Positions 29,106 to 47,922 of a stretch of DNA of 53,715 nt are shown piece after piece (position 1 is the first letter of the stretch; the number at the start of each line of letters is the position of its first letter). Origin of the DNA: Candidatus Bathyarchaeia archaeon (GTDB taxonomy: Archaea; Thermoproteota; Bathyarchaeia; Bathyarchaeales; Bathycorpusculaceae); the NCBI GenBank assembly GCA_049512935.1, contig JBEKWR010000024.1, positions 1 through 53,715 on the forward strand. Reading direction: 5' to 3'. A model generated the notes under the pieces. The model made no database searches. It was given only the letters and a program-made list of their open reading frames with translations, and was not told the DNA's origin. The position numbers and the translations under genes are program-made.

Positions 29106-29150
29106 GGCGCCTATTTCGCCGTTTTTGCTTTGGGCATGTTTTGCCAGGTT

Positions 29151-32023: not shown

Positions 32024-32110
32024 TCTGTATCTCTCTTATTGGGAGTAAGCGGTTGTTTAAATAAAAGACTTGCGAATTTTTGGGGTTTTGGAAGTAGGAG
32101 GCGGTTTTAG

Positions 32111-33508
32111 GTGAAGCAGCTTCAGCGTTCGCGGTTGCGGCGGATGGTGGGGTGCTGCCAGGAAAGTCAGGAGGCACCTGAAAAAGCGTTCTCCCGCCTA
32201 ATTGTGCCTGAAGACCCGGTTCTTTTCTCCCAAGAATTTTTCGGGTTTCAGGTCTTACCTTACCAGGCTGGCCTTCTCCGGGATCGGGCAAAACGCGTCG
32301 TGGTACGGTGGAGCAGGCAAGCAGGCAAAACCACCTGCATCGCGCTGCGCGCGATTTGGTTCGCATGCGCCTACCCGAAGACGTTGACCCTGATTGTGGC
32401 TCCCACCCTCCGCCAAAGCATGATTATGAGCGACCGCATCCAAGACTTCCTCGCGGCTCTGCCACAGGAAAAACGCGCGGCGCTCGTCGGCAAGATGCAG
32501 CGCACAACCATCCGCTTCAGAAACGGCAGCAAAATCGTCGCCTTACCTAACAGCCCGCAGCTTCTTCGGGGTTATGCGGCGCATCAAATTATAACGGATG
32601 AAACTGCCTTCTTTAAGGATGACAAGTTGGTCTTCTACAACGTTCTCTACCCCATGCTGAGCACGACGGACGGCACCTTGGTTGCGAGCAGCACGCCTTG
32701 GAGCAAGGACAGCGTCTACTACCGCATGTGCCAAGCAAGCGAATTCAGCAAGCACACCATAACCTGCGAAGAAGTCGTCAAAGCCGGCTTAATCAAGCAG
32801 GGCTTCATCGACGAGATGCGGAGCCAACTGCCGATCGACCGTTTCCAACGCGAGTTCATGGCTGAGTTCGTGGAAGACATAGACGCGTGGCTAACCCAGA
32901 GCCTCATCGTCAGCTGCATTGATAGTCAGCTTGCCCCCCACGATTTCATGGCCCAACCCACGGGAGAATTCTTCGTCGGCGTCGACTTGGGAAAAGAGCA
33001 GGATTTCAGCGTCGTGCTGGTCATGGAAAAGCTGGGTTCCCAATTGCGGGTTGTTCACGTTCATCGCTTTCCCCTTCACTCGGAGTACGCCAGCGTCATC
33101 GGCTACGTCAAGAGCCTGCAGGACCGCTGGAGAACCATCCGCAGCGTCTACACGGACGTCACCGGCGTGGGAAATTATGTGACCGAGGACATGGTCCGCA
33201 GCGGCATCCAAGGCGTCACAGGCGTCACCTTCACCGTGCAGTCCAAGGAGGAGATGGCGACGATCCTTCGGGAAAAAATGCGAAACGGCGAAGTAAAAAT
33301 CCCCTACGTCCCCGCCAAAAGGCTCGACGACGTGGACTTGACGGCTGAACTCAACGTTGAAAAATTCATGCTTATGAAAACTGGGCACCTGCGGTTTAGC
33401 CACCCCGACGGAGGACACGACGACGTATTCTGGAGCATGGCACTCGCTTGCCTGAGCGCGGTGCAGTCGCCGCTGCCGGGAAAAGGAGCAGCAATGCTAC
33501 CACACTAA
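32111..33508 (+). CDS. terL: Terminase large subunit
   Basis: PYQ adenine motif, Walker A WSRQAGKTT, Walker B IITDE, coupling SSTP, nuclease GVDLG...D...HDDVFWS. Confidence 0.95.
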   Translation: MKQLQRSRLRRMVGCCQESQEAPEKAFSRLIVPEDPVLFSQEFFGFQVLPYQAGLLRDRAKRVVVRWSRQAGKTTCIALRAIWFACAYPKTLTLIVAPTLRQSMIMSDRIQDFLAALPQEKRAALVGKMQRTTIRFRNGSKIVALPNSPQLLRGYAAHQIITDETAFFKDDKLVFYNVLYPMLSTTDGTLVASSTPWSKDSVYYRMCQASEFSKHTITCEEVVKAGLIKQGFIDEMRSQLPIDRFQREFMAEFVEDIDAWLTQSLIVSCIDSQLAPHDFMAQPTGEFFVGVDLGKEQDFSVVLVMEKLGSQLRVVHVHRFPLHSEYASVIGYVKSLQDRWRTIRSVYTDVTGVGNYVTEDMVRSGIQGVTGVTFTVQSKEEMATILREKMRNGEVKIPYVPAKRLDDVDLTAELNVEKFMLMKTGHLRFSHPDGGHDDVFWSMALACLSAVQSPLPGKGAAMLPH

Positions 33509-33548
33509 GCGGATTTCAAAGTTATGGTAATTTGAGGTGCATCAAAAT

Positions 33549-34952
33549 ATGAGTTTTGTTGCTGAAAAAATCAGCGAGAGCTTCCAAAAGCTGCAGGCGC
33601 GGCTGGGCTTTAAAGCGGAGAGGCAGGTGCCGCCCAACGTTAGCAAGCGCCAGATTGAGGAGGAGGTGCCTCTTAGCTGGAAGAAGGATGAGATGCTCTA
33701 CGGGTACGTTAACCGCTATTTGCTTAAGGGTTCGGGCGCTGGCTTTGTAACTTCTCCTTATGACTCGTATTGGGATCGCATTTGGGGAGCAACGCCGATT
33801 GAGGATTTGCCCAAGTACAAGGACCTGTACACTTTCACCCCGTACATCAAGGCAGCCGTCGACGTCACCGTGAACTTGGCAATCAGCAACGGGTTCGAAC
33901 TCAACGGCGGCGACAACGCGGTCCGCGAGTGGCTCACCGACTGGCTGGACGAACAAAACATCCTGCGCATCCTGCGCATCGCAGCAACGGACATGCTTGT
34001 CTTCGGCAACGCTTATCTGGAGATTTGCCGGGACGAAACCAGCGGCGAAGTCACCTGGCTAAAACCCCTCGACCCAGTTTACATGCGCCCCAGACGCGAC
34101 GCCTACGGCAACGTCTTCGGCTACATCCAGCTTCTAACCGTGCCGCCCGTGGTTTTCACGGCTCAAGACATGGTGCATTTCATGTGGGGTGCCAAAAGCT
34201 GGTGGTACGAATGGTCTTACGGCACGAGCCTGTTGCGTCCGCTGCTCAAAACCCAGGCGCTGATCGACCAGTTCGAGGATGACATGGCGGTTATCTGCCA
34301 CACCTACAGCAAGCCGATGCTCATCGTAAAAGCGGGCACGGCGGAGCGGCCTTTCAGCGACGCGCAGATCCAGACACTTATGGAAGCCTTCCGAGACCGC
34401 AAAGCAGCCACCGACGTTTTCGTCCGCGGAGACGTCACCGTCGACGTGCTTCCAAGCCTGACTAAAGACGTCAACGTCCAATTCTGGCTTGACTACCTCT
34501 ACAAGCAGCGCGAGGCGGTTCTTGGCGTTCCGAAGATATTTTTAGGAGAAAGTCAGGGAACCAACCGTGCCACAGCCGACGTCGTAATGCAGGAGTACGT
34601 TACCCGCCTTCGGATGCTTCAGGAAATCGTGGGCGACGTTTTGGAAACGGTTCTGTTCAAGCAGCTGGTCAAGGATGAGTTCGGCGAAGGCGTCGAAATC
34701 CCCAAGGTCCAGTGGCGACCGATCTGGGAAGCAACGGTGGAGGACAAAGCCAAATTCGTCAGCGACCTGGTGCAGAACGGCATCATAACCGTGGCGGAAG
34801 CGCGCATGCAACTCGGGTACCCAGCGGAGCCGGAGGATCAGGGGCTGCCGCAACTGTTGCCCAAGCCGAAAAGCGAGGGCGAAAAAATCGTGCAGAAAAC
34901 CGTCAAAGGCGTCATGGAGCAGCTAAACGAAAAAGAGGCGAGGGGCGAGTAG
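33549..34952 (+). CDS. Portal protein
   Basis: Follows terL; DMLVFGNAYLEI, LKPLDP, YGTSLL, LGVPKIFLG, GIITVAEARMQLG. Confidence 0.93.
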   Translation: MSFVAEKISESFQKLQARLGFKAERQVPPNVSKRQIEEEVPLSWKKDEMLYGYVNRYLLKGSGAGFVTSPYDSYWDRIWGATPIEDLPKYKDLYTFTPYIKAAVDVTVNLAISNGFELNGGDNAVREWLTDWLDEQNILRILRIAATDMLVFGNAYLEICRDETSGEVTWLKPLDPVYMRPRRDAYGNVFGYIQLLTVPPVVFTAQDMVHFMWGAKSWWYEWSYGTSLLRPLLKTQALIDQFEDDMAVICHTYSKPMLIVKAGTAERPFSDAQIQTLMEAFRDRKAATDVFVRGDVTVDVLPSLTKDVNVQFWLDYLYKQREAVLGVPKIFLGESQGTNRATADVVMQEYVTRLRMLQEIVGDVLETVLFKQLVKDEFGEGVEIPKVQWRPIWEATVEDKAKFVSDLVQNGIITVAEARMQLGYPAEPEDQGLPQLLPKPKSEGEKIVQKTVKGVMEQLNEKEARGE

Positions 34953-34953
34953 C

Positions 34954-35001
34954 ATGCCGGGCTGGAGGAAGGCGCATCTGTTCGGCGTTACAACTGGCTA
35001 A
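34954..35001 (+). pseudogene. Degenerate 5' fragment resembling the gene at 36888
   Basis: ATGCCGGG-CTGGAGGAAGGCGCATCTGTTCGGCGTTAC reads MPG/LEEGASVRRY, against MPGLEEAINVWRY at 36888. Confidence 0.6.
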
Positions 35002-35113
35002 AAAATAGTGCAGAAAAATTTTGAAGGTGTGATGACCATATTGATTGGATAAAATTAGGAAAAGCTAATAAAAGCAGTTCGTTCACTTCTATTGAGACTG
35101 AGGGATCAATTTA

Positions 35114-35749
35114 ATGTCTGAAACCGAGCCTTTAGAAGCTCAACCTATTGAACTGTCTCTTAATGCTATGTGGATGTTGCAGCCCGATTATAGGGGTGTA
35201 AGGCAATCGTTGGAAGCCAAGGGTTACACCCTAGTCCAGCAGCTTCAAGGCCCCCAAATCATAATAGCCAAAAAAGGGACAATTGACATTTTTGTAAATC
35301 TTGAAAGACGAGTTCTTGGAATTGAAAGCGAAACATCATTGAAAGATATCCTTCTCGCGTTTGGTGATTTGGAAAAAACATATCAAGAAATCGGTATGGA
35401 ACCTTCTAATCTGATATTCCTTGAGTTTTTAGGTAGCTACATCCTAAATTCAAAAAACAGTCCACTCGATAAAATCAACTCTCTAAGAGTTCAGGATAAG
35501 ATGCTGGACAAAATTGGTTCAATACTGGAAAAAGAACTCGCACCTTTAAACTTGAGTTTAACTGTAAAAGGATCGAATCCAACTTCAACAAATTGGCTAA
35601 ATTTGATAATTGAACCGCTTTATCCAAGCCCAAACAAGAGCTATATAATAAAGGTTGTTTTTAGAGGAACTACTCAAGAAGTAGTGGATTTCGCCAAGAC
35701 TATTGAAAAAAGAATTCCTCGAATTATCGAACAAATTGAAGGCTCTTAA
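35114..35749 (+). CDS. Hypothetical alpha/beta protein, first gene of an AT-rich cassette
   Basis: 211-aa ORF with its own TATA-like element upstream; AT-rich. Confidence 0.75.
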   Translation: MSETEPLEAQPIELSLNAMWMLQPDYRGVRQSLEAKGYTLVQQLQGPQIIIAKKGTIDIFVNLERRVLGIESETSLKDILLAFGDLEKTYQEIGMEPSNLIFLEFLGSYILNSKNSPLDKINSLRVQDKMLDKIGSILEKELAPLNLSLTVKGSNPTSTNWLNLIIEPLYPSPNKSYIIKVVFRGTTQEVVDFAKTIEKRIPRIIEQIEGS

Positions 35750-35750
35750 T

Positions 35751-36332
35751 ATGAGTGCAACGTCACAAATGCTTTTTGATTTGAACATAGATTCTGAAGC
35801 AAATGTCCTCGTTGAGGGCACGCGCCTAAATGGAGCGACAAACCACTTTCAAAGACTTACCGAAATGTTTAAGGCGCGTGAAGAGAAAGAAATACCTAAC
35901 AACATTTTTTTTGAAACTCAAAGTACTCCAACCGGAACAGTAAAACTTCAAGGGCTTTCAATTGGCGTCGCGACAAAAGGTGACCTCATGTTACCGACAC
36001 TTTCAGATACCTTAAAATTCGAAATTACAAACACGGCAGATACCTTCATTGTCCACCAAAAGAGCGCTGTTAAATACAAAAAAGAAATATTACTTGTTGC
36101 AAAGCGTATTTCTAGTTTTCTAACAGCTAGAAAAATTCCCGCAGATGTTTGCGTGGATCTCTTCACAGATCCCGAGTATAGTGATTGGGTCGAACCAAAA
36201 GTAGAGATTAGAGTAAGCAAGGATCAAGTGTCAGAGACCTATGACTTATTTGACGAGCTATTAACATGCGCTTTTTCTGGTATAACCCAGAAAACGCTAA
36301 AACGACTATCTGTTACAATTGATAGCAGGTAA
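35751..36332 (+). CDS. Hypothetical protein, probable HEPN partner/antitoxin
   Basis: ATG 1 nt after the previous stop; C-terminal VDLFTDPEY...VEIRV segment; directly precedes the HEPN gene. Confidence 0.65.
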   Translation: MSATSQMLFDLNIDSEANVLVEGTRLNGATNHFQRLTEMFKAREEKEIPNNIFFETQSTPTGTVKLQGLSIGVATKGDLMLPTLSDTLKFEITNTADTFIVHQKSAVKYKKEILLVAKRISSFLTARKIPADVCVDLFTDPEYSDWVEPKVEIRVSKDQVSETYDLFDELLTCAFSGITQKTLKRLSVTIDSR

Positions 36333-36337
36333 GGCAT

Positions 36338-36775
36338 TTGATAACTCCTGATCGATTCCTCCTTCTCGCAAAACGGATGGTCTCAAACCCGGGAATTCCT
36401 GAAGAGGAGGCTCGCTCGGCCATAAGCAGAGCTTACTATTCCTTATATCATGAAACACTACAGTTAGTAATTAAGAAATATTCATTAGACCTGATCAGAG
36501 AAATTGAGCGACAATATGGCCGGCAACTTACCATTCAAGAAAGGGCTAAGTTAAATTCGTTGGACCCTGATTTTCTATGCCGAATAAACTTTCATCGAAT
36601 CCTTCCTGTTGTAATGCGAAATATGCAGAAACCGATTATTGCAAGTAAATTCATGAATTTTAGGGAAAAGAGGAATCAAGCCGATTATGATTTGAAATTA
36701 ACTACTGCTCAATCGGATGCAATTACAATAGTCACCAATATTGACAAATTCGTTGTTGTAGTAAAAACCATGTAA
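36338..36775 (+). CDS. HEPN-domain protein
   Basis: RSAISRAYYSLYH and REKRNQADY motifs. Confidence 0.85.
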   Translation: MITPDRFLLLAKRMVSNPGIPEEEARSAISRAYYSLYHETLQLVIKKYSLDLIREIERQYGRQLTIQERAKLNSLDPDFLCRINFHRILPVVMRNMQKPIIASKFMNFREKRNQADYDLKLTTAQSDAITIVTNIDKFVVVVKTM

Positions 36776-36887
36776 AGCATTTGTATTGCAAAGTAATTTC
36801 CTTAAGCATTCGATTTTAAAAGTTTCTCAGAATGGAAACTAAAGGTTACTATGCTTTATTAATATGAACTGATGGGAAGAAGATATT

Positions 36888-37199
36888 ATGCCTGGTTTGG
36901 AAGAAGCAATAAATGTTTGGCGTTACCGCGTGGCTGACCCTGACAAGTTTGAAAAGTTCCGCGTGAAGGAGCTGGGCAAAGGCGTCAAAATAACGCTTGG
37001 AAAAGTCAAGGGGTCGCAAAGGTGGGAAATCCAAAATTACATGTTCGAAAAAACCACTTTTAAGGATGCCCATTCCGTGCGGAAATGGCTTGACGGGCAT
37101 TTAAAAGCTGAAATCCGAACGCTTCTTGACTTCAAAGCTTGGGACGAGTGGCGCCGCAGATTTGTGAATGCGTACATGCAAATCTCAAACGTCGAATAA
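36888..37199 (+). CDS. Viral head-morphogenesis-associated protein
   Basis: RYRVADPDKF..FRVKELGKGV...QNYMFEK..F....VRKWL; sits in the slot between portal and protease. Confidence 0.7.
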   Translation: MPGLEEAINVWRYRVADPDKFEKFRVKELGKGVKITLGKVKGSQRWEIQNYMFEKTTFKDAHSVRKWLDGHLKAEIRTLLDFKAWDEWRRRFVNAYMQISNVE

Positions 37200-37237
37200 G
37201 CCGTCAAAAGTATCGAATTATCAAAGTGGTGTTTTGG

Positions 37238-37384
37238 ATGAGACAACAGAATAAACAAACCAGAAAAGCCGCCGCGAAGGCGCAGCCCAGTTTGCTTGGG
37301 GATTGGCAGAGCTTCCGCGCTTTGCAGGAAGCAGTCTACACGGCTCAGGGCAAACAAGTACCCGCGTTTGATTTCCAAAGTTGA
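37238..37384 (+). CDS. Small hypothetical protein (48 aa)
   Basis: ATG after GGTG (MRQQNKQTRK...); fills the gap before the protease gene. Confidence 0.45.
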   Translation: MRQQNKQTRKAAAKAQPSLLGDWQSFRALQEAVYTAQGKQVPAFDFQS

Positions 37385-37400
37385 AGGCAAGGTGATTTGG

Positions 37401-38513
37401 ATGGAACTTCGTTATTTTGTGCCTTTTAAGGCTCAGGACGGCGTCAACGCCCAGTACGCGCTGCGCGAGAAGCTTGTCAACATTGAAGGCGTAGCCATCG
37501 ATACGAGCGTGAACGCCAACAAATGGCAGGTTCCCCAGCAGGACCTAGAGTACGTAGCGTCCAGCCTGGCGGGGGCACAGCTCAGGGTTGACCACGCCGA
37601 AAGCGCCCTGATGGTTGTTGGCAAGGTTTCAGAGGCGAAGCGGGACGGCGACCGCGTGCTCTTCCGCGCTGAGGTCGGCGAGGAACGCTTGATTGAGAAG
37701 ATTCTTCGCGGCTACGTGACCCATGTGAGCATTCAGGTGGACAGCGACGACGTGGAGTGCAGCAAATGCAAGCGGCCAACCCGTAAGGAAGGCATGCTCG
37801 TTCACCTGTGCCCGGGCGCCTGGGAAATCATCCATCGACCCAAAGTCCGCGAGCTCAGCGTCGTGGCAAGCCCGGCGTACAAGGAAACGGCGTTTCAACC
37901 TGTCGGCTTCTTCGCCGCAATGAACCGCGACCAATGGGACGCCATCGTCAAAGCCGTCGCGGATTCACAGTTATCAGAAAATGATAACGAGGATGTGGGT
38001 TCTAGGCATAGGCCGCAAGAACCTGAAAGCAAATTGTTTGCAAGAGAGGTGAGGCACTTGTCTGAACATAACAGTCAGATGGGCGCTTCTCCACATAAGG
38101 CACAGGGCGTAGTTAACGTGGCGCCAGACGAAGAGGAGCCGAAGCAGGTAACGTACGAAGATTTCATGCAGCAGCTACAAGACCTCGAAAAGCAAATAAC
38201 CAACTCAAGCACTTCGGAAGCCGACGTTGAAGCTCTCAAAAAGAAAGTCTCTGAGCTTGAAGACGCAGTGGCGAAAAAAGCCACCAAACGCAGTTTAAGC
38301 CGCAAAATAAGCGAGCTTTCAAAGCAGCTTCAGCAACCCCAACAGGACGGCGAAGACGAGGGCGACAAGCAGGAAACCCAATCCAACTCGGCGAGACACG
38401 CAAGCGGCAAAGGCATAGTGGCAGCGGACGAGATGCAGCGCGATGCACTTGGCAATTACGACTGGTTCAAAGACCTCCTCAAAGCACACAAGAAACTCAC
38501 AGGTTTCCATTAA
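37401..38513 (+). CDS. Prohead protease fused to a coiled-coil scaffold region
   Basis: LRVDH, VSI, CSKC...HLC Zn insert and ELSVVASPAY protease-like motifs; acidic coiled-coil C-terminal third. Confidence 0.88.
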   Translation: MELRYFVPFKAQDGVNAQYALREKLVNIEGVAIDTSVNANKWQVPQQDLEYVASSLAGAQLRVDHAESALMVVGKVSEAKRDGDRVLFRAEVGEERLIEKILRGYVTHVSIQVDSDDVECSKCKRPTRKEGMLVHLCPGAWEIIHRPKVRELSVVASPAYKETAFQPVGFFAAMNRDQWDAIVKAVADSQLSENDNEDVGSRHRPQEPESKLFAREVRHLSEHNSQMGASPHKAQGVVNVAPDEEEPKQVTYEDFMQQLQDLEKQITNSSTSEADVEALKKKVSELEDAVAKKATKRSLSRKISELSKQLQQPQQDGEDEGDKQETQSNSARHASGKGIVAADEMQRDALGNYDWFKDLLKAHKKLTGFH

Positions 38514-38525
38514 AGGTGAATTTGC

Positions 38526-38975
38526 ATGTCTTTAGAAGGAACAACCGCGCTTGTAAGTGACCGCTACCTAATCAGCGCGCAAGTTGACACGGGAGCAACC
38601 GTCACAGCAGGCCAAGTTGTCTACATAAGCAACCCAGGCTTCATCCCAGCGGTAAAACCAACAGATGGCATACGCAAAGACGTCATCGGCGTGGCATTGA
38701 CAGGCGGCGCAGCAGGCAAAACAATAACGGTTATCTGCAGAGGCTTAGTGCGGGTCACGGCTTCAGGAAGCATCTCGACGGCGCAGAGGATAGCAAGCGA
38801 CGCAAGCGGGCAAGTTCAGGGTGTCGCCGCAATGGCGGCTCCCGCATCAGACACCTACACGACCGCTGCCATGCAGGCGCAGCTTGACAAAACTGAGCAA
38901 TGGATCGGCAGGGCAATAACGGCTTCGTCAACGGCTGGCACCGTCATCTACGCCTTGATCTACTGCATACCCTAA
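38526..38975 (+). CDS. Capsid decoration/cement protein (DUF2190-like)
   Basis: VTAGQVVYI, VIGVAL, RGLVRVTASGSI, IGRAIT; adjacent to the capsid gene. Confidence 0.75.
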   Translation: MSLEGTTALVSDRYLISAQVDTGATVTAGQVVYISNPGFIPAVKPTDGIRKDVIGVALTGGAAGKTITVICRGLVRVTASGSISTAQRIASDASGQVQGVAAMAAPASDTYTTAAMQAQLDKTEQWIGRAITASSTAGTVIYALIYCIP

Positions 38976-38991
38976 GCAAAGGTGACTTCAC

Positions 38992-39917
38992 ATGAGTTTC
39001 GTTAGAGACGCATTAACTTTCGTTGACACAGGAGGCGTTGCTTACCCCGCGCTTCACCGCAAAATCATCGAGCTATGCATGCCCGCACTTGTCGTCAAGA
39101 AATTGCTGGCTGAGTTTCCGCTGGTCGCTGGCAAAACAGCTACTTTCGTTAAGGAAAACGGCAGCCGCTCAGCTGCGATAAGCCAGGTTGGCGAGGGCGC
39201 TGAGATTCAGATGGACTTCACGCCTTATACCACGATCACAATTACGCCGTACAAGAAGGGTCTGCGCGAACGCATCAGCCGGGAAAACATCGAGGACCTT
39301 TACATTCCAGTGATTGAGAATCAACTGCGACGCTTAGCACGACGCATGGCTTACACCATCGACAGCGACTGCATGACCGTTCTCGACTCCGCCGCAGCGA
39401 CGTCTACTCCTGCAACGGGCAAAAGCTTAGGCGCCACGGGATCCGAGTTCACCATAACCGGTGGGCTTGGCACCAAAGACATCTTGGCTGGCAAAGCAGC
39501 GATCGAGGGCAAAAACTTCATTCCCGACAGCATCCTGCTTAACCCAATCAACGCCAGAGACGTCATGTATCTTCCCCAGTTTTCGCTGTACGCACAGTAC
39601 GGCGAGCAGCCGGGAGCAATGCAGAACGGCGTGATCGGCTCAATCTACGGCATGTCACTGTACATAAGCAACACTGTTCCAGCGGGAAACGCGTACATAT
39701 TGAGCACTGGGCCGAACCTGTCGGCGGCGTATTCACCTTTGGGCTTTTTCGTTAAGGTTGCCGCCTAAGCAGCCGCGAAGTAAAACGCCCCTTGATGAGC
39801 GACGTTGAAATAAAACAGGAGTTCGACTCTGTCGACGTGACTTTGACAACCCGCTACAGCCCCGTGGTAGTCTGTGGAGAAGCAATCTGCAAAGTGACTG
39901 GACTCAACACGAGTTAA
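38992..39917 (+). CDS. HK97-fold major capsid protein, join(38992..39754,39781..39917), 299 aa after removal of a predicted 26-nt BHB intron
   Basis: VGEGAEI, PYKKG...ISRE.IED, PDSILLNP, GSIYGM...SN.VP. The downstream frame supplies a plausible C-terminus, KRPLMSDVEIKQEFDSVDVTLTTRYSPVVVCGEAICKVTGLNTS. Confidence 0.88.
39755..39780 (+). other. Predicted bulge-helix-bulge intron AGGTTGCCGCCTAAGCAGCCGCGAAG
   Basis: Central helix UCGU/GCGA, 3-nt bulges UAA and AGU, inner helix GGUUGC/GCAGCC, outer helix GGGCUUUU/AAAA(C)GCCC. Excision restores the frame. Confidence 0.8.
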
Positions 39918-40050
39918 ACACAACTTTTGAAAAGAGCAAAAAAACTTCTTGCCCCTGTCTTTTAAGTTAGGGTCCGTAAAGCCGGCTTTCAAAATCATCT
40001 CGCAATTTTGCTTGGCCATGCGCTGGGCAGTGTGAAAGGGTGATTTAAAC

Positions 40051-40638
40051 ATGGAAAAAGCATTTGGACATGAAAAAGTGAGCGTAGCTGCACATGCAGC
40101 AGCAAGCGAGAAAGCCGCGTGGATGGCGCGTTGGACGATACAAAAGTTCGTCGGCGACTTTCCAGGGATGACTCCGCGGGAAATCATGGATTCAGGCGTT
40201 AAACCTTATGAGTCCTTGGAGTTAGAGGGCAACTGTCTGCTGAACTGCGGAATCAACAGCATCATCTGGAAGGCCGTGAACGGCGGGTTAACGTCCCCGT
40301 TGAACGCTACTTACGGCTGCATAGGCGTGGGCGACTCGACGACGGCGGCGTCGGCAAGTCAAACGGGGCTGCAGGCAAGCAGCAATTACCTCTGGGTTGT
40401 TGCGACAAGCGTCACGGTTGGTTCAAGCCAGCAGATGGTTGTCGTAGCCAACTTCAGCTCAGGCCAAGCCAACTACGTTTGGAACGAGATCTGCGCTGGT
40501 GTGGCTCCGTCTGGGCTGCCTAGTGCCTCAGCTGCTCCGCCAGGTTCAGGGACGGCTTTGAATCGTTTGGTGTCAACCATGGGCACGAAAGCAAGCGGTA
40601 CCACGTGGACTGCGACGTTGACGGTTTCGCTGCAATAG
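40051..40638 (+). CDS. Putative virion structural protein
   Basis: GNCLLNCG...IGVGDSTTAASASQTGL...ANYVWNE...NRLV..MGTKASG pattern typical of tailed-virus structural proteins. Confidence 0.7.
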   Translation: MEKAFGHEKVSVAAHAAASEKAAWMARWTIQKFVGDFPGMTPREIMDSGVKPYESLELEGNCLLNCGINSIIWKAVNGGLTSPLNATYGCIGVGDSTTAASASQTGLQASSNYLWVVATSVTVGSSQQMVVVANFSSGQANYVWNEICAGVAPSGLPSASAAPPGSGTALNRLVSTMGTKASGTTWTATLTVSLQ

Positions 40639-40642
40639 GTGT

Positions 40643-40942
40643 ATGGGCATGGTTAACGTTGGGGATACTTACACTTACAGCGCAACTATTAGCAACGGAG
40701 CAAGCCTTAGTCTTCAGCAATCAAGTACTCAATGCGTGGTAATTCACAACATCTGCTATGCAGGTGCAGTGGAGTTACACGCAACTGATGGTACGAATGA
40801 TGTGAAGGTTGATATGGATTCTTCTAACGGCGGCTGGCTGAACTTTGCTTTTCACTGCAGCGCGAGCTATTGGTACTACGTGAAGAACACGAGCGGCGGA
40901 AACCTCGTAATTACCGCTGACGGGATCTATACTCATACTTGA
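40643..40942 (+). CDS. Small beta-rich putative virion protein
   Basis: Tightly packed in the structural operon. Confidence 0.6.
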   Translation: MGMVNVGDTYTYSATISNGASLSLQQSSTQCVVIHNICYAGAVELHATDGTNDVKVDMDSSNGGWLNFAFHCSASYWYYVKNTSGGNLVITADGIYTHT

Positions 40943-40953
40943 GGTGACCGAGG

Positions 40954-41223
40954 TTGACAAACGTTGAACAGGGTAACGCATGTATCTACGCGAAAATTCA
41001 GCTTGCGCAGAACTTAGGGATTTCCGCGAGTGGCTCAGATCAGGTTAACGCAGCAGTTAATCAAACTCAGGATCCTAATGGCTTGTGGAGTGCCGTCGGC
41101 TGGTTTTATGATGAGCCGTCGGGAGTCTTGACTGTGTACTTTAATGCTGTTCCTTCTGACGATGGCGCGCAATTACTTACGAACATCCAGGGCATCTACT
41201 CAACCGCGGCGTTCGTGACCTAG
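40954..41223 (+). CDS. Hypothetical viral protein
   Basis: GAGGTGA SD, TTG start, operon packing. Confidence 0.6.
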   Translation: MTNVEQGNACIYAKIQLAQNLGISASGSDQVNAAVNQTQDPNGLWSAVGWFYDEPSGVLTVYFNAVPSDDGAQLLTNIQGIYSTAAFVT

Positions 41224-41225
41224 TA

Positions 41226-42014
41226 ATGACAAGGCTTACTCCCCGTACTTCAACGCTTCACACGTTGACCATAACAATGCAGGCTGCACAAGAAACGTTG
41301 CAAGGCACGCCGACTACGCTGCCAACTTCTGAGCCTGGCGCCGGGAGCGAGCAGGTTAGCTATACGGTGGTGTCTGGCGATTTGCCGACGTTCAGTGGTT
41401 CAGTGCCGATTGCGCAGACTTGGATTGCTGATGTTATTGCTGCTGGAAAAGCTGTAACCGCAGCAACTATTTCGTGGCGAATGAAGAAAAACGGCTCTAA
41501 TGTTGCTACGGGAACTCAGGCTGTTGCTGCTAACACATTCTACACCGTAAATGCCTACTTTGTTGGCGTAGCGGTTGGCGATGTCTTGACGATTTCTCTT
41601 TGGAGCAACCAGACAGACAGCAATTGGGATTACAATGCTTATCAAATTCACTATGATAGGTTAATTCCAGAAAACCCGAATAAGCTCTACGTGTACAACT
41701 TAACGTACACTCTTTTTACGCCTAATGCAAACCTTCCCACATTAGTTAAAGGCAATCCTGCTTCAACAGGTACGCAATATCCAAATTTCAATGTTGGAAA
41801 TTCAGGTTTTGCTGTGCCAATATCAAGTTCGCAAAACGTGGGTGCGTTGCTGGTAAGCTCGATTTATGGACTAGTCAGAATGTATTATGGCGAACAAGCT
41901 GGAGTTAACACGGCTATCGTCAACACAAGCGCAACATATCGCCCATATTACTACCAAGACTATCACTGGGTCAGCACAATAGGTTGGCGTTATTTGGATA
42001 GAGCTTTAAAGTAG
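41226..42014 (+). CDS. Putative virion fibre/decoration protein
   Basis: T/S/V/G-rich beta composition; in the structural operon. Confidence 0.6.
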   Translation: MTRLTPRTSTLHTLTITMQAAQETLQGTPTTLPTSEPGAGSEQVSYTVVSGDLPTFSGSVPIAQTWIADVIAAGKAVTAATISWRMKKNGSNVATGTQAVAANTFYTVNAYFVGVAVGDVLTISLWSNQTDSNWDYNAYQIHYDRLIPENPNKLYVYNLTYTLFTPNANLPTLVKGNPASTGTQYPNFNVGNSGFAVPISSSQNVGALLVSSIYGLVRMYYGEQAGVNTAIVNTSATYRPYYYQDYHWVSTIGWRYLDRALK

Positions 42015-42017
42015 GAG

Positions 42018-42689
42018 TTGCGAGTGTTGTCTGTCGCTGTCACCGAGTACGGTGAAATCGTTTCTAACGGGCTTACTGAGTATGGCGAAGTTGTTTTCGG
42101 CAGTAAGTTAACAGAGTTCGGCGAAATATTTTTTCAAGGAATTCATGTTATTTCAGCCTCGGAAAGTGGTGTCGGCTCAGACGTTGCAAGTTTAGCTGCT
42201 TCGGTTCCAGCAGTTGAATCTGGACAGGGCGCAGATGCTGCCGGGCTTCAAGCAGCAATTCCCGGAAGCGACGTTGGAACGGCTTTTGAGTCTTCAACAG
42301 TTCAAGCGACCGTATCCGCAGCTGAATCAGGCTTAAGCTTAGATTCAGTTACTTTGCACGCCTTGATCTCTCTTCTTGAGTCAGGTGTAGGTGCTGATTC
42401 AGCCACAGTTCATACTTTTCTTAGTCTGCTCGAAACAGCCGTAGGCTTTGATGCAGCAACTGTTCAGGCGTTAGTTAGCGCTTTAGATTCTGGCGTAGTT
42501 GTGGATTCTGCTGGGGTGTCAGCTTTCTTGAGCGTTTTTGATTCTGGTTTAGGTGTTGATAGAGCCAAGGCTGGTCAGTTGTTTGTTCGTTTGGTCAACC
42601 TTGTGGGTGACGGTGCGCCTGTAACTTTGCGGGTTGAGGGCAGCCAGGTTGTGTTGCGCGGTGACGGTGCACATGTCAAGGCAGAGTAA
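42018..42689 (+). CDS. Virion protein with eight 18-aa repeats
   Basis: Three TE(Y/F)GE units, then repeats of consensus (I/V/L)SxxESGxGxDxAxLxAx. Confidence 0.7.
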   Translation: MRVLSVAVTEYGEIVSNGLTEYGEVVFGSKLTEFGEIFFQGIHVISASESGVGSDVASLAASVPAVESGQGADAAGLQAAIPGSDVGTAFESSTVQATVSAAESGLSLDSVTLHALISLLESGVGADSATVHTFLSLLETAVGFDAATVQALVSALDSGVVVDSAGVSAFLSVFDSGLGVDRAKAGQLFVRLVNLVGDGAPVTLRVEGSQVVLRGDGAHVKAE

Positions 42690-42704
42690 TTGAGGAATGA
42701 GATT

Positions 42705-43478
42705 ATGTCAACTGTTTTCAGGATGAATACGGGTGATTTGCAGCCGAGCCTGCAGGCTACCCTTTTGAACCCAGACAACACTCCTGCAGACTTAACTGGG
42801 GCAAGCGTCGTCTTTACCATGATGCAGCAAGGTGCAGTTCTGTTCAGTAATCCAGCGACGATTGTTGACGCGGTTAACGGGGTGGTTCTTTACTGTTGGC
42901 TCCCTGGCAACACAGATTATTATGGCAGCTGCGTCGGCGTTTTCGTCGTCACGTACCCGTCTGGGTTGACGCGGACGTTCCCCGTTGGCGCCCAGTTAAA
43001 CATTGTTTTTCCCCCGCAGTACCCGCAGTTTACCACGCTTGGCGAGGTCATAAGCCGCTTGAACGTCACGGGACCAGACAGCAACGACAACTTCACCGTT
43101 TTCGGTCTTGCGATTTCTGCCGACAGCGTGCAGGCTCACGTGGACTACGCGAACAAGTACCTTTACTCTCTCGTGCCAAGTTTAACGCCCACGGATTCGC
43201 TTTATGTCAACGCGCAGTTAGCCGCATTGGACATTGCTTGCCTGGGCGTTCTAGTGACAAGCGTCGGGGGCAGCCTCGTCGGGGCGTACGACTATTTCCT
43301 CGGCGACATGCGTGTGGCACGCGCGGGGCCTTACGCTTCCGCGATCAAGGCTGCGATTGACGGCTACCGCAGCAGCGCGATAGCTAACTTGGCGAACGTG
43401 GCAGCGGTTGTTTCTGCGGCTGAGGCTTCTGCGGCTGGGAAAGTGCCAAGGTACAGGGGTGGGTTGGTTTCGCCATGA
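42705..43478 (+). CDS. BppU-like N-terminal domain fused to a head-tail adaptor-like domain
   Basis: GDLQPSLQATL...ADLTGASVVF...GVVLYCW..G.T...TFP, then FTTLGEV...V.AHVDYANKY. Confidence 0.65.
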   Translation: MSTVFRMNTGDLQPSLQATLLNPDNTPADLTGASVVFTMMQQGAVLFSNPATIVDAVNGVVLYCWLPGNTDYYGSCVGVFVVTYPSGLTRTFPVGAQLNIVFPPQYPQFTTLGEVISRLNVTGPDSNDNFTVFGLAISADSVQAHVDYANKYLYSLVPSLTPTDSLYVNAQLAALDIACLGVLVTSVGGSLVGAYDYFLGDMRVARAGPYASAIKAAIDGYRSSAIANLANVAAVVSAAEASAAGKVPRYRGGLVSP

Positions 43479-43612
43479 GTTATGGAAAAGTGCTGACAAA
43501 AGGAAATTACATCTTGGCTAAAGTGAACGGGGTCAAGATGGTTCTTTCAAGCGGTGAACTGGGGCAGCTTATCTGCGATGGGTATGATGTAGAAGTTGTA
43601 ACGTCAACTTGA
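43475..43612 (+). CDS. 45-aa hypothetical viral protein (not in ORF track)
   Basis: ATGA overlap with the upstream stop; MSYGKVLTKGNYILAKVNGVKMVLSSGELGQLICDGYDVEVVTST. Confidence 0.6.
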   Translation: MSYGKVLTKGNYILAKVNGVKMVLSSGELGQLICDGYDVEVVTST

Positions 43613-43625
43613 AGAAAACTTTTTG

Positions 43626-43748
43626 TTAGTCGACTAGGTGTGCTGTGCCGTCGGGACAGTAGACCTTCTCGCCTGTTTCAACTTTCGCGTAGCGTCTCTT
43701 GCACTCGAAGAGTTGAAGCTCGCATCCATCACAATCACGAGATAGCAT
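43626..43748 (-). CDS. 40-aa Cys-rich microprotein (not in ORF track)
   Basis: GAGGTGA SD 4 nt before ATG; MLSRDCDGCELQLFECKRRYAKVETGEKVYCPDGTAHLVD. Confidence 0.65.
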   Translation of the reverse strand: MLSRDCDGCELQLFECKRRYAKVETGEKVYCPDGTAHLVD

Positions 43749-43868
43749 CTTGTCACCTCTCTTCCTTTAACAAGTTCCGAAGTAGCGTACGGAACAGAGA
43801 AATAAGGATTTTGTTCATAGTCTATAGCCACTTCTTTGGTACACTAACAGCAGGGAGTTGTTTTTACC

Positions 43869-44336
43869 ATGTCTACACCAAGCGACACGTTCGCAGAGAA
43901 AATTAGCAACCTGTTGCAGCAGAACTGGGACAGCGACAGCACAGGCATTCAGATGACTGACGTGTTCTGGAGCCACGACAAATTCGACACTATGAGCCAG
44001 GTTGAACAGGTCAGCCAAAAAGCCATTGTTTCAACGTATAACCCTCAGAACCCAGTTGCTGTCGAGGTGCTTACCCCCCAGACCAACTTTATTCATGAAA
44101 CAATCGTGGTCGACGTTATCCTCCATGTTGCAATTCTCGGGGGAACCGACAGCTGCATTGCTCTGCGTGAATCCGTGCGACAGTTTATCCTTAAGATTTT
44201 GCATGCTCATCAAACGCTTTTGCCTGGAGCCAACCTCATGAATGTGGAAGGCGAGTATGTGCGTGGTGAGCTGCCGCAGATTCAGCGTGAGACTTTCAAG
44301 GTGGCTGTAAGCTTCTTCGACGTTTCACCGGCTTGA
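43869..44336 (+). CDS. Putative tail terminator/neck protein
   Basis: Size, position and LLQQNW N-terminus, as in archaeal virus neck proteins; assignment mainly positional. Confidence 0.55.
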   Translation: MSTPSDTFAEKISNLLQQNWDSDSTGIQMTDVFWSHDKFDTMSQVEQVSQKAIVSTYNPQNPVAVEVLTPQTNFIHETIVVDVILHVAILGGTDSCIALRESVRQFILKILHAHQTLLPGANLMNVEGEYVRGELPQIQRETFKVAVSFFDVSPA

Positions 44337-44430
44337 ATATACAAAACAAATCTGTTTTCTCCCGACAGCGTTGACTGCGCAAAAATTATATACAAAATGC
44401 TTGAAATAGAGCAAGTGGGAGAGCGATAAG

Positions 44431-44991
44431 TTGGGTTTATACAAGGTTGTTTTCAAAAAGTGTCCGCAATGCGGCGGCCGTCTTAAACAGGGAATGCCTC
44501 GGATTGGTCCAGAAAAAGTCGTGTGCGGGCACTGCCACGCAGAAATCAGTACAGGATTGAAACCCTGGTCGAGTTTCACAACTGAACAGAAGCTGTGGAA
44601 GGGGTTCTGGGAGCTCATTGCGCCGTCCTACTTCGGCAGCTACTTTTCCGTCGCGGGGTTGATTGCCCTAGTTGTGAACGCCGTGTTGGTGTTGCTGCCT
44701 TTGATTGCCATACTGGAATTAGCCTTGTCTGCTGGCTCCATTGACGCCTCGGCAATCGGTCTTGCTGTTGGGATGTTCATAGTCGGCGCGTTGTACGTCT
44801 ATTATTTACCGCTGAAGCATCTGCGGACGGAGATCGAAATTTCCGAGAGAAGCGACCCCAATAATCTTGCTGTTTGGCATGTCGGCGAAACCAGAGATTA
44901 CCTGCAAATCGTGTGGTACGGGACGATAGCAGCCATCGTTTTTGTAGCTATAATTGCGGTTGCAGCCGCGTTGCTAGGCGGATTGGGCTAA
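44431..44991 (+). CDS. Zn-ribbon membrane protein (moron-like)
   Basis: CPQC...CGHC followed by three TM helices; own TATA-like AATTATATA upstream. Confidence 0.7.
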   Translation: MGLYKVVFKKCPQCGGRLKQGMPRIGPEKVVCGHCHAEISTGLKPWSSFTTEQKLWKGFWELIAPSYFGSYFSVAGLIALVVNAVLVLLPLIAILELALSAGSIDASAIGLAVGMFIVGALYVYYLPLKHLRTEIEISERSDPNNLAVWHVGETRDYLQIVWYGTIAAIVFVAIIAVAAALLGGLG

Positions 44992-45184
44992 GAAACAATG
45001 GTTCGGTTACCCTCAGCTTCGTTGGGGAAGCCATCAAGCGACCGTCATCATTCCCGTTTACCTAATTTTCACCATTAATACGAACCCCTTTTCGTCCTTA
45101 GTTCTTTGCGGGATGTCTAGCTAGTTAGCCCAGTCGCCATTGAATTTGACGCAAGTTTAGTTCTTCAGTTTTGGGTGAAAAAGT

Positions 45185-45553
45185 GTGAGCGTAAATATTG
45201 AGGTTTCAATTCAGCAAGGGATCACGGCTGCTCTGGAAAACTATGTTGAGCAGTACCCTGAGGCTGTAGCATCCGCGATGAGGACGGTTGCTGACCGCGT
45301 GCTTGAGACAAGCAGTGTTCTTGTGCCTGTGCGGACGGGTTTCCTTAAGTCAACGCTTGGTTATCGGCAAGACAGCAGTTTCCAGGTGACTTTTTTTGCG
45401 GCAGCTTCTTACGCTTCTTATGTCGAGTTTGGGACTTCGCGCATGTCTGCTCGGCTGTTTCTTACGCGGTCGATTCAGCAGCATGAAGGGGAACTTCCGC
45501 AGGAAGTGCTGTCTGCCCTGGTTCAGTTGCGCGATAATTTCTTTATTGTCTGA
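45185..45553 (+). CDS. HK97 gp10-like tail-completion protein
   Basis: VPVRTGFLKST...YASYVEFGTSRMSARLFL. Confidence 0.88.
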   Translation: MSVNIEVSIQQGITAALENYVEQYPEAVASAMRTVADRVLETSSVLVPVRTGFLKSTLGYRQDSSFQVTFFAAASYASYVEFGTSRMSARLFLTRSIQQHEGELPQEVLSALVQLRDNFFIV

Positions 45554-45577
45554 TGGTCATGGGAGGTGAATTAAGCT

Positions 45578-45988: not shown

Positions 45989-46057
45989 GGGAGCAGATTT
46001 TCCATGTTTGTTGTTTCCCCTTTTTAGGGTAATTTGCTTGTATTAGGAGGTTAAAGT

Positions 46058-46483: not shown

Positions 46484-46706
46484 TCTGCCACTACTACCCC
46501 GCCTACGACTTGGAGAAAGCTGGAAAACTAAGTCGTCTCCAAATTCAGGTTCTCGCGGAAGGTGTAAGGTTAATCCGTCAACTTGGCAATCCGTGAAAAA
46601 GCACAGTGGGCAGCTCGTCTCGCCTTTTTGTATGTCGCAGAAGTAATTGGCAAAACCTTAAGAGTTACCATCATCAAATCATGGCTGAAAACTGAGGTCA
46701 ATAGAG

Positions 46707-47921: not shown

Positions 47922-47922
47922 G

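What the first reader, a model, noticed from the sequence alone, without database searches (positions are those of the whole stretch)
39741..39790. Candidate tRNA-type (bulge-helix-bulge) intron inside a viral major capsid protein gene
Seen: the capsid ORF stops at 39768 (...PLGFFVKVAA*), but a convincing capsid C-terminus continues in another frame to 39917. The junction folds into a complete hBHBh' motif: outer helix GGGCUUUU (39741-48)/AAAA-C-GCCC (39782-90); 4-bp central helix UCGU (39749-52)/GCGA (39775-78); 3-nt bulges UAA (39753-55) and AGU (39779-81); inner hairpin GGUUGC/GCAGCC. Established: archaeal EndA cuts after the second nucleotide of each bulge and RtcB ligates; mRNA introns of this type are known mainly from crenarchaeal cbf5. 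Applying that rule excises exactly 39755-39780 (26 nt), removes the TAA and gives ...GFFVIKRPLMSD..., a 900-nt, 299-aa ORF. Inference: capsid synthesis depends on the host tRNA-splicing machinery, which could act as a post-transcriptional switch, a host-range filter or a sign of domestication. I know of no described BHB intron in a viral capsid gene, but could not search.
Basis: partly seen in the sequence, partly recalled or inferred. Interest (0 to 1): 0.96.

Follow-up and report, generated by a model that had tools for sequence, protein, structure and literature searches.

The report
tRNA-type intron splitting an archaeal capsid gene
The capsid gene of a virus integrated in a Bathyarchaeia genome is interrupted by a 26-base intron of the kind normally cut out of archaeal tRNAs, and relatives of this virus carry such introns at about ten places in the same gene, which appears not to have been described for any virus.

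Summary
The HK97-type capsid ORF 38992-39768 stops four codons into a 26-nt insert (39755-39780), and the minimum-energy fold is the proposed helix / 3-nt bulge / 4-bp helix / 3-nt bulge / helix.

The motif alone is common by chance: about 180 equally strict candidates per strand of the window. What is decisive is comparison with relatives.
- Intron-less relatives (P0002, 95% identical) read exactly the junction that the cleavage rule predicts.
- 22 distinct inserts of 25-663 nt sit at this same position in relatives. All keep the central helix and the bulges, and the inner helix changes by compensation.
- 21 of the 22 carry an in-frame stop.
- The downstream exon is under purifying selection (pN/pS 0.09 in the window's clade).

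Relatives also carry such introns at about nine further positions of the same gene, up to three per gene. 25 of 28 junctions are strict BHB, against 11 of 504 in length controls and 0 of 26 in neighbouring genes. Long versions encode nuclease-like ORFs, and presence is patchy among near-identical genes. This points to mobile introns and their ORF-less relics.

The host genome has two EndA genes and RtcB. Nine literature searches found no precedent.

The parts
38992..39754 (+). Major capsid protein exon 1 (254 codons plus the first base of the Ile codon)
   Evidence: ORF 38992..39768. Pfam Phage_capsid_4 PF25209, E 3.9e-11, profile positions 27-206 of 262 only. 95% identical to residues 1-254 of intron-less P0002.
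39755..39780 (+). 26-nt BHB intron, with an in-frame TAA at 39766-39768 in its loop
   Evidence: Fold. Position and length equal the only gap relative to intron-less homologues. The junction given by the BHB rule matches P0002 at 13 of 13 residues, and only at this offset (row L006, which is the same sequence as the window).
39781..39917 (+). Major capsid protein exon 2 (last two bases of the Ile codon, 44 codons, stop)
   Evidence: tblastn match of P0002 residues 253-299 at 39774-39914. Exon 2 shows pN/pS 0.09 within the window's clade and no stops in 23 distinct carriers. It corresponds to the Pfam profile positions beyond 206 that intron-less P0002 and P0066 cover.
39741..39748 (+). Outer helix h, 5' strand (exon 1), pairing with 39782-39790
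   Evidence: Pairs are kept in 97.1% of cells in 13 short-intron sequences. Both strands are coding sequence, so conservation is confounded with protein constraint.
39749..39752 (+). Central 4-bp helix H, 5' strand UCGU (exon 1, the Phe-Val codons)
   Evidence: Paired in 22 of 22 distinct introns at this site.
39753..39755 (+). 5' bulge UAA; predicted cut between 39754 and 39755
   Evidence: The cleavage rule (between the 2nd and 3rd bulge residue) is as stated in PMC2738675 (passage read).
39756..39774 (+). Inner hairpin h' (GGUUGC / 7-nt loop / GCAGCC)
   Evidence: Across 22 distinct introns, inner pairs 1-4 are paired in 22, 22, 22 and 21 of 22, with 3 to 5 letter combinations each (3-4 standard pair types). 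Sliding the 3' partner drops pairing from 121/132 to 27-85/132.
39775..39778 (+). Central helix H, 3' strand GCGA (inside the intron)
   Evidence: GCGA in 21 and GCGG in 1 of 22 distinct introns whose sequences are otherwise unrelated, from 25 to 663 nt.
39779..39781 (+). 3' bulge AGU; predicted cut between 39780 and 39781
39782..39790 (+). Outer helix h, 3' strand (exon 2), with one unpaired C at 39786
28581..53715 (+). Head-tailed provirus that carries the gene. The left limit is approximate and the element runs off the contig end.
   Evidence: An IMG/VR record is 100% identical to window 30000-49999, and its length implies about 28581-53707 (the limits are my arithmetic). TerL 32111-33508 and portal 33537-34952. 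Cement protein 38526-38975. Host genes lie to the left: SecY 26104-27531, HypF, HypD.

Best explanation
Window 39755-39780 is a genuine archaeal bulge-helix-bulge (tRNA-type) intron inside the HK97-type major capsid gene of a head-tailed provirus of a Bathyarchaeia archaeon.

Proposed mechanism. In the pre-mRNA, exon and intron bases form helix / 3-nt bulge / 4-bp helix / 3-nt bulge / helix. The host splicing endonuclease cuts between the 2nd and 3rd base of each bulge, after 39754 and after 39780. The host has two EndA paralogues, probably forming a heterotetramer. Host RtcB then joins the exons and probably circularises the 26-mer. The result is a 299-codon mRNA. Unspliced mRNA ends four codons into the intron and gives a capsid protein that lacks its last 45 residues.

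Proposed origin. The intron is most likely an ORF-less relic of a mobile intron family that targets this capsid gene, not an evolved switch.

Shown here: the structure, the exact junction, conservation with covariation, selection on exon 2, and presence of the host enzymes.
Inferred: cleavage and ligation in vivo, the endonuclease architecture, and mobility by homing.
For: (1) Junction. Intron-less homologues read exactly the junction that the BHB rule predicts (P0002, 299 aa, 95% identical). The rule-derived offset gives 13 of 13 matching residues, and no other offset does.

(2) Same site in relatives. Of 127 unique loci, 101 have no insert at this site. 24 loci (22 distinct sequences) carry inserts of 25-663 nt at this same position. 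Central helix: 22/22. Inner pairs 1-4: 22, 22, 22 and 21 of 22, with 3-5 letter combinations each. Slide controls: 27-85 of 132 against 121 of 132. Over 13 short introns, 97.9% of cells are paired against 41-59% when slid.

(3) Stops and selection. 21 of 22 distinct introns have an in-frame stop inside the intron. Yet exon 2 has no stop in 23 distinct carriers, with pN/pS 0.09 at pS 0.53 in the window's clade and 0.23 pooled.

(4) Other sites. Breaks in the capsid genes of relatives at nine further positions also carry the motif. 25 of 28 unique junctions are strict BHB at the length fixed by the protein alignment. The controls give 11 of 504 for wrong lengths and 9 of 1400 for shuffles. Removing them gives clean 297-303-aa ORFs in all 30 intron-bearing genes tested. 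MFE folds reproduce the motif in most of 15 junctions.

(5) Negative controls. In-frame amino-acid loop inserts without stops show no BHB. None of 26 discontinuities in neighbouring genes is a strict BHB.

(6) Host machinery. Two EndA-domain ORFs of 184 and 183 aa on other contigs and RtcB. No EndA-domain or RtcB match lies on the window's contig (C24), which holds the provirus.

(7) Origin.
- The 534-, 663- and 794-nt introns hold ORFs with weak nuclease hits: DUF559 at 21.0 bits against a 20.6 cut-off; PHROG endonuclease 8.9e-7, homing endonuclease 9e-5, Holliday junction resolvase 2.4e-4.
- A 47-nt intron shares 19 of its first 23 nt and 14 of its last 15 nt with the 794-nt intron at the same site.
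- The site needs at least 15 gains or losses on a tree of 118 genes, and near-identical genes differ in presence.
Against: - No RNA evidence.
- The fold energy of the window's motif is ordinary (z = -1.42), and BHB-like motifs are frequent by chance.
- The outer helix lies wholly in coding sequence, so its conservation says little.
- 3 of 28 junctions in relatives are relaxed rather than strict. Two of the 15 MFE folds (L156 and L198, positions aa245/246) do not show the canonical motif.
- The nuclease assignments of the intron ORFs are weak and mostly below curated cut-offs. No cleavage-site or homing evidence exists.
- The tree is a FastTree with many unsupported forks.
- The host's own cbf5 has no intron, so mRNA splicing in this organism has no independent precedent here.
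- L006, L013 and L264 are identical to the window and add no independent lineage.
Confidence: 0.85

Rival explanations
1. The insert is a real, spliced BHB intron, but it is kept because it is useful. It would make capsid synthesis depend on host EndA/RtcB activity, acting as a timing switch, a lysogeny safeguard or a host-range filter. It might also protect the site from cleavage or CRISPR targeting.
For: - All five members of the window's clade keep an intron of 26-27 nt although they differ at pS 0.53.
- An in-frame stop is kept in 21 of 22 distinct introns, with the stop codon itself varying among TAA, TGA and TAG.
- BHB introns were found in the capsid gene and not in its immediate neighbours (0 of 26).
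Against: - 101 of 127 unique relatives lack the intron at this site and have intact genes.
- Near-identical genes differ in presence.
- Insertion positions, lengths and sequences vary freely.
- Long forms carry nuclease-like ORFs, as selfish homing introns do.
- Retention within a clade is also expected for a neutral relic that cannot be lost imprecisely.
Confidence: 0.15
2. The insert is not removed. The provirus is decaying or domesticated and makes only a C-terminally truncated 258-aa capsid protein, or none.
For: - The element is integrated next to host genes (SecY, Hyp genes), and no expression data exist.
- Some relatives do have 1-2-nt frameshifts in this gene (L038, L042, L179).
Against: - Exon 2 stays open and under purifying selection in all 23 distinct carriers (pN/pS 0.09-0.23).
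- The insert has exactly the geometry needed for precise removal, in 22 distinct versions.
- TerL, portal, protease/scaffold and cement genes of the window are full-length ORFs.
Confidence: 0.05
3. The two reading frames are joined by another mechanism: translational bypassing (as in T4 gene 60), a self-splicing intron, or DNA-level excision on induction.
For: A stable hairpin with a stop codon in its loop sits right after the break. This superficially resembles a bypassing element.
Against: - Inserts at the same site range from 25 to 663 nt and reach 794 nt at another site. That is far beyond known bypass distances.
- What is conserved is the BHB geometry, not take-off and landing codons.
- No Rfam family, group I or II introns included, reaches its gathering score in the window or in the three long-intron loci. 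The only match up to E = 10 in 39600-39950 is a chance-level U7 hit.
- 25-68 nt is too short for a ribozyme intron.
- I saw no flanking direct repeats in the junction sequences printed. This was by inspection only; no repeat search was run.
Confidence: 0.04
4. The 26 nt are an assembly or sequencing artefact.
For: None beyond the general possibility. Raw reads could not be inspected.
Against: - The same sequence is present in three further records of different contig lengths.
- Related but distinct introns occur at the same site in eight Bathyarchaeia MAG loci (in seven assemblies) and in many IMG/VR contigs.
Confidence: 0.01

Closest known systems
BHB introns in crenarchaeal cbf5 pre-mRNA (Watanabe et al. 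2002, recalled; Yokobori et al. 2009, PMC2738675, passages read)
   Same: A short intron in a protein-coding gene, flanked by a bulge-helix-bulge. The predicted cut lies between the 2nd and 3rd bulge residue. The intron is removed by the tRNA splicing endonuclease and shows gain and loss among relatives. Sizes are similar (tens of nt).
   Different: - Here the gene is a viral structural gene, not a cellular housekeeping gene.
- About ten insertion positions occur in one gene family, with up to three introns per gene.
- The window's motif is a strict hBHBh', whereas that paper describes most cbf5 motifs as unconventional.
- Some versions here contain ORFs, which that paper says had not been found for cbf5.
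- The host's own cbf5 is uninterrupted.
Archaeal rRNA/tRNA BHB introns that encode homing endonucleases (summarised in PMC8598171, passages read; I-DmoI-type LAGLIDADG enzymes, recalled)
   Same: BHB-bounded introns that exist both as long ORF-bearing forms and as short ORF-less forms, with patchy distribution consistent with mobility.
   Different: - The target here is an mRNA of a virus.
- The intron ORFs here are not LAGLIDADG. They show weak similarity to PD-(D/E)xK-type nucleases (DUF559/Vsr-like, Hjc-like) with zinc-finger N-termini.
- Homing has not been shown.
Group I introns and inteins in conserved genes of bacteriophages (capsid, terminase, polymerase; recalled)
   Same: Selfish intervening elements, often with homing endonucleases, that settle in conserved, highly expressed viral genes. 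They are polymorphic among close relatives.
   Different: Those elements are self-splicing RNAs or self-excising protein segments. These introns have no catalytic capacity and depend entirely on host protein enzymes.
Unconventional HAC1/XBP1 mRNA splicing in eukaryotes (mentioned in PMC4090602, passages read)
   Same: Protein-enzyme cleavage of an mRNA at paired stem-loop sites. Ligation by a tRNA ligase (RtcB in animals) changes the reading frame and creates a new C-terminus.
   Different: In those cases the nuclease is IRE1 rather than EndA/Sen, and the event is a regulated stress response. No regulation is shown here.
12-bp 'putative introns' in protein genes of an archaeal rudivirus (Peng et al., as cited in PMC2738675; original not read)
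   Same: Short insertions in protein-coding genes of an archaeal virus that were suggested to be introns.
   Different: [quoted passage not shown] Here the inserts carry stops or shift the frame, have BHB geometry, and are shown by comparison to be absent from the mature coding sequence.

Membership tests
Archaeal bulge-helix-bulge (tRNA-type) intron | Two 3-nt bulges on opposite strands, separated by a 4-bp helix and flanked by helices (hBHBh') | tested here: met
   The MFE fold equals the motif. My pair check gives central 4/4, inner 6, outer 4 plus 4 after a 1-nt bulge.
Archaeal bulge-helix-bulge (tRNA-type) intron | Cutting between the 2nd and 3rd bulge base on both sides yields the functional mature sequence | tested here: met
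   The predicted junction equals the sequence of intron-less homologues, with 13 of 13 residues matching only at this offset. The spliced length is 299 codons. The rule is taken from PMC2738675.
Archaeal bulge-helix-bulge (tRNA-type) intron | Pairing maintained in evolution by compensatory change | tested here: met
   the inner helix has 3-4 standard pair types per position over 22 distinct introns, and slide and shuffle controls are far lower. The central helix never varies on the exon side, so it is uninformative there. Its intron strand is kept in otherwise unrelated introns.
Archaeal bulge-helix-bulge (tRNA-type) intron | The host encodes the splicing endonuclease EndA and the ligase RtcB | tested here: met
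   PF01974 hits at 100 and 82 bits on contigs C25 and C10. PF01139 hit at 591 bits on C12. One EndA ORF has the ...EHAPY... stretch and the other has ...DTAPY.... This fits one catalytic plus one structural subunit, but the catalytic-residue assignment is recalled, not tested.
Archaeal bulge-helix-bulge (tRNA-type) intron | Cleavage and ligation actually occur (spliced RNA, circular intron) | not testable with these tools
Mobile (homing) BHB intron | The intron encodes a homing endonuclease | tested here: not met
   The window's 26-nt intron has no room for an ORF. Relatives' introns of 534, 663 and 794 nt do hold ORFs of 159, 202 and 255 aa with weak nuclease similarity. The window's intron is therefore filed as an ORF-less relic, not as an autonomous mobile intron.
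Mobile (homing) BHB intron | Presence or absence polymorphism among otherwise near-identical target genes | tested here: met
   At least 15 changes on the tree. Pairs such as L115 against L072/L081/L026, L187 against L092, and L039 against L111 differ by branch lengths of 0.03 or less.
HK97-fold major capsid protein (Pfam Phage_capsid_4, PF25209) | Match to the family profile above the curated cut-off | tested here: met
   44.2 bits against a cut-off of 27 for exon 1 alone; 46.6 and 53.2 bits for intron-less P0002 and P0066. The gene order TerL, portal, protease/scaffold, cement, capsid fits. The fold itself was not confirmed: the AlphaFold model had mean pLDDT 54.
Group I / group II self-splicing intron | Match to a ribozyme covariance model; size of hundreds of nt | tested here: not met
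   No Rfam family other than one tRNA reaches its gathering score in the window or in L115, L187 and L178. The only match up to E = 10 around the site is a chance-level U7 hit. The intron is 26 nt.

The most novel reading that the evidence does not exclude
The capsid gene of a widespread group of Bathyarchaeia head-tailed viruses is a hot spot for a family of mobile, protein-spliced (BHB) introns. They occupy at least ten insertion positions, with up to three introns per gene. Full-length forms carry non-LAGLIDADG (PD-(D/E)xK-like) homing endonucleases, and many ORF-less mini-derivatives of 17-68 nt exist. These viruses would then depend on the host tRNA-splicing enzymes to make their capsid. 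They would be the first viruses known to carry tRNA-type introns in protein-coding genes. They would also offer a natural system in which repeated intron gain and loss in prokaryotic mRNAs can be watched.
Probability: 0.65. Interest if true: 0.92.

Novelty: new variant of a known kind. Interest (0 to 1): 0.88.

Why it matters
Protein-spliced (BHB) introns are known almost only from archaeal tRNA and rRNA. The single classic mRNA case is cbf5.

A viral structural gene that cannot be expressed without the host's tRNA-splicing enzymes would be a new kind of virus-host dependency.

The comparative picture found here has three parts: many sites in one gene, ORF-bearing and miniature forms at the same site, and presence or absence among near-identical genes. 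Together these suggest that such introns can spread in protein-coding genes. That bears on how introns colonise genes without a spliceosome.

There is also a practical consequence. 19 of the 120 best database gene calls of this capsid family are truncated or altered by unrecognised introns. Annotation pipelines for archaeal viruses are therefore miscalling a hallmark gene.

Tried and rejected
No splicing evidence was obtained.
- Structure. An AlphaFold model of intron-less P0002 with alignment A1 had mean pLDDT 54. It was too poor to show that the last 45 residues are integral to the fold, so no fold search was run and the model is not used as evidence.
- Window-wide search for further introns. 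The strict BHB scan gives 180 + 205 candidates, and dozens pass a simple open-frame filter, which is chance level. The best-looking extra candidate (815-845, downstream of ORF 274-822) was rejected: relatives' homologues have open frames of about 120-200 aa and match only up to about query residue 170 of 182, so the ORF is complete without it.
- Other genes of the provirus.
  - I compared the window with three roughly 80%-identical proviruses (G002-G004). This found no further BHB intron polymorphism.
  - The only insert was about 600 nt with an HNH-endonuclease ORF in the terminase gene of G003, for which I found no strict BHB.
  - Genes within 3 kb of the capsid gene in about 129 loci gave 26 discontinuities, none a strict BHB.
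- Host tRNA at 879-984, which has a 32-nt insert. My strict finder sees no canonical BHB there. The finder therefore misses relaxed motifs, and the counts above are conservative.
- Alignment of short site-8 introns to the long ones. With cheap gaps the result is fragmented and meaningless. Descent of the window's 26-mer from an ORF-bearing intron is shown only by analogy with position aa247.
- ARAGORN on the window found no tRNA although Rfam finds one.
- Literature. Nine searches and passages of six papers gave no report of a BHB intron in a viral protein-coding gene. The Bathyarchaeia-virus preprint contains the word 'intron' zero times. Subscription journals and supplementary files were not searchable, so an existing report cannot be excluded.
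This report is the same text with that field added.
Full report
**What is in the window**

The window is a contig of a 2.3-Mb Bathyarchaeia assembly (93% complete). Database relatives of the capsid protein are named Bathyarchaeia or Bathyarchaeota.

Bases 1 to about 27,500 carry host genes:
- an AMP-binding enzyme, HypF, HypD and an AIR-synthase-type (HypE-like) protein;
- SecY at 26104-27531;
- a tRNA at 879-984.

From about 28.6 kb to the contig end lies a head-tailed provirus:
- terminase large subunit, 32111-33508;
- portal, 33537-34952;
- a 405-aa ORF at 37296-38513 in the protease/scaffold position;
- cement protein, 38526-38975;
- capsid ORF, 38992-39768.

The capsid ORF matches Pfam Phage_capsid_4 only over profile positions 27-206 of 262. 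Its C-terminus is therefore missing.

**The observation**

The MFE structure of 39735-39796 is exactly the proposed hBHBh'. Its energy is not unusual (z = -1.42).

A strict BHB pattern occurs about 180-205 times per strand of the window by chance. The fold alone therefore proves nothing. The weight rests on comparison with relatives.

**Comparison at the same site**

A protein search returned 236 relatives, of which the best 120 were listed.
- Most are 297-299 aa and run straight through the site. P0002, 95% identical, reads ...GFFVIKRPLMSDVEIK.... This is exactly what results from joining 39754 to 39781.
- 17 of the 120 stop a few residues after GFFV, with unrelated tails. One reads through an in-frame insert, and one is cut five codons earlier.

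I fetched DNA for 230 loci, plus the window's own region (233 in all): IMG/VR, and GTDB genomes.
- Of 127 unique sequence contexts, 101 have no insert at the site.
- 24 loci (22 distinct sequences) have inserts of 25, 26, 27, 28, 29, 30, 31, 49, 50, 68, 534 or 663 nt at this very position.
- All 22 keep UCGU paired with GCGA (GCGG once) and two 3-nt bulges.
- The first four inner-helix pairs are formed in 22, 22, 22 and 21 of 22, although the letters differ (3-5 letter combinations per position).
- Sliding the partner strand reduces inner pairing from 121/132 to 27-85/132.
- The formal count on 13 short introns gives 97.9% of cells paired against 41-59% when slid. 0 of 500 shuffles reach the observed pairing or covariation score.
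- The intron-side strand of the central helix is the only sequence shared by otherwise unrelated introns.

**Is the downstream exon used?**

21 of 22 distinct introns carry an in-frame stop inside the intron, including those whose length is a multiple of three. Unspliced mRNA therefore cannot reach exon 2.

Even so, exon 2 has no stop in 23 distinct carriers. It evolves under purifying selection: pN/pS is 0.23 pooled, and 0.09 at pS 0.53 among the five members of the window's clade, all of which carry the intron. Exon 2 must therefore be translated in frame with exon 1.

**More sites**

Aligning full-length proteins to every locus showed further breaks in the capsid gene. For each break I fixed the insert length from the protein alignment. 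I then asked whether a BHB with that length exists nearby.

It does, at residue positions of about:
- 71
- 84
- 106
- 117
- 201.3
- 201.7
- 245/246
- 247
- 28

One gene (L016) has three introns, and L014, L156, L178 and L198 have two each.

Counts and controls:
- 25 of 28 unique junctions meet strict criteria.
- Wrong-length controls give 11 of 504, and shuffles give 9 of 1400.
- The offset chosen by the BHB rule is among the best-matching protein junctions in 23 of 28. Two of the five misses were uninformative because of an index offset.
- Removing the introns gives clean 297-303-aa ORFs in all 30 intron-bearing genes. 11 of 129 loci were dropped: partial genes, 1-2-nt frameshifts, or in-frame introns found only later.
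- Independent MFE folds of 15 junctions show the motif in most. Some are relaxed, and two (L156 and L198, positions 245/246) are not canonical.

Two negative controls:
- In-frame inserts without stops, which are plain amino-acid loops, show no BHB.
- None of 26 discontinuities in genes flanking the capsid gene is a strict BHB.

In all, 33 of 129 unique loci carry at least one such intron. In the GTDB scan, 8 of 26 loci carry the site-252 intron.

**Origin**

- The 534-, 663- and 794-nt introns contain ORFs of 159, 202 and 255 aa.
- The ORFs have zinc-finger-like N-termini and weak similarity to PD-(D/E)xK-type nucleases. Hjc is below the Pfam cut-off, and DUF559 scores 21.0 against 20.6. PHROG families annotated endonuclease, homing endonuclease and Holliday junction resolvase match at E 9e-7 to 5e-3.
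- At position 247, a 47-nt intron shares 19 of its first 23 nt and 14 of its last 15 nt with the 794-nt ORF-bearing intron. It is best read as a deletion derivative.
- On a FastTree of 118 spliced capsid proteins, the window's site needs at least 15 gains or losses. Genes that are nearly identical differ in presence.

This is the pattern of homing introns and their relics. Homing itself is inferred.

**Host machinery**

- Two EndA-domain ORFs (184 and 183 aa) and one RtcB lie on other contigs. None lies on the window's contig, which holds the provirus.
- Two EndA paralogues, only one with the histidine-containing stretch, fit the heterotetrameric enzyme type known for broad substrate range. 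The architecture and its properties are recalled, not tested.
- The host has intron-bearing tRNAs: 5 of 42 by ARAGORN, plus the tRNA at 879-984 with a non-canonical 32-nt insert.
- The host cbf5 is uninterrupted.

**Verdict**

The insert is, with about 85% confidence, a real BHB intron removed by host EndA and RtcB. It is most likely an ORF-less relic of a mobile intron family.

Nine literature searches and passages of six papers gave no precedent for BHB introns in a viral protein-coding gene. The nearest cases are cbf5 and unproven 12-bp inserts in a rudivirus. Supplementary files and subscription journals could not be checked.

Noticed in passing
window 879-984 (+): A tRNA gene (anticodon CAU) of 106 nt with a 32-nt insert in the variable-loop region (about 925-956). 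Rfam finds it at 51.5 bits, but ARAGORN missed it. My strict BHB finder sees no canonical motif around the insert, so it is probably a relaxed, non-canonical intron.
   Followed up: partly
G003 contig C4, terminase gene (within L250/L251; homologue of window 32111-33508): In one related provirus the terminase large-subunit gene is interrupted after about residue 275 by an insert of about 600 nt that encodes an HNH-endonuclease-like ORF. No strict BHB was found at its borders. The kind of intervening element is undetermined.
   Followed up: partly
L115 2315-2794, L187 2304-2912, L178 2316-3083: These ORFs lie inside the long capsid-gene introns. They have zinc-finger-like N-termini plus PD-(D/E)xK-like (Hjc-like or DUF559/Vsr-like) C-termini. 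They are not LAGLIDADG, the class usual for archaeal intron endonucleases (class recalled).
   Followed up: partly
window about 16000-26000 (+): A run of short, tightly packed + strand ORFs with very high AT skew (0.24-0.38) lies directly upstream of SecY. The position suggests a ribosomal-protein operon, but this was not tested.
   Followed up: no
L061 about 1897-2018 (gene upstream of the capsid gene): Several homologues align with a 25-37-nt frame-shifting discontinuity in the protease/scaffold-position gene. There is a hairpin but no strict BHB. It could be a relaxed intron, a frameshift or an error.
   Followed up: no
L038, L042, L179 (capsid genes): These capsid genes have 1-2-nt frameshifts and no BHB. 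They are pseudogenes or sequencing errors in some relatives.
   Followed up: no
L021 (contig of a MAG titled Limnocylindrales, Chloroflexota): An intact capsid gene of this archaeal virus family sits in a bin labelled as a bacterium. The likely cause is mis-binning of a viral or archaeal contig.
   Followed up: no
window 8585-14781: A hydrogenase maturation gene cluster (HypF 8585-10882, HypD 11175-12263, AIR-synthase-type HypE-like gene 13678-14781 on the - strand), with an AAA_14/DUF4143 ATPase gene in between.
   Followed up: no
P0109 (database protein, 280 aa) and L156 2284-2313: Two site-252 inserts of 30 nt are in frame and lack a stop, so gene callers read straight through them and add 10 residues. 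L156 still has the BHB geometry. Whether these are spliced or translated is open.
   Followed up: partly
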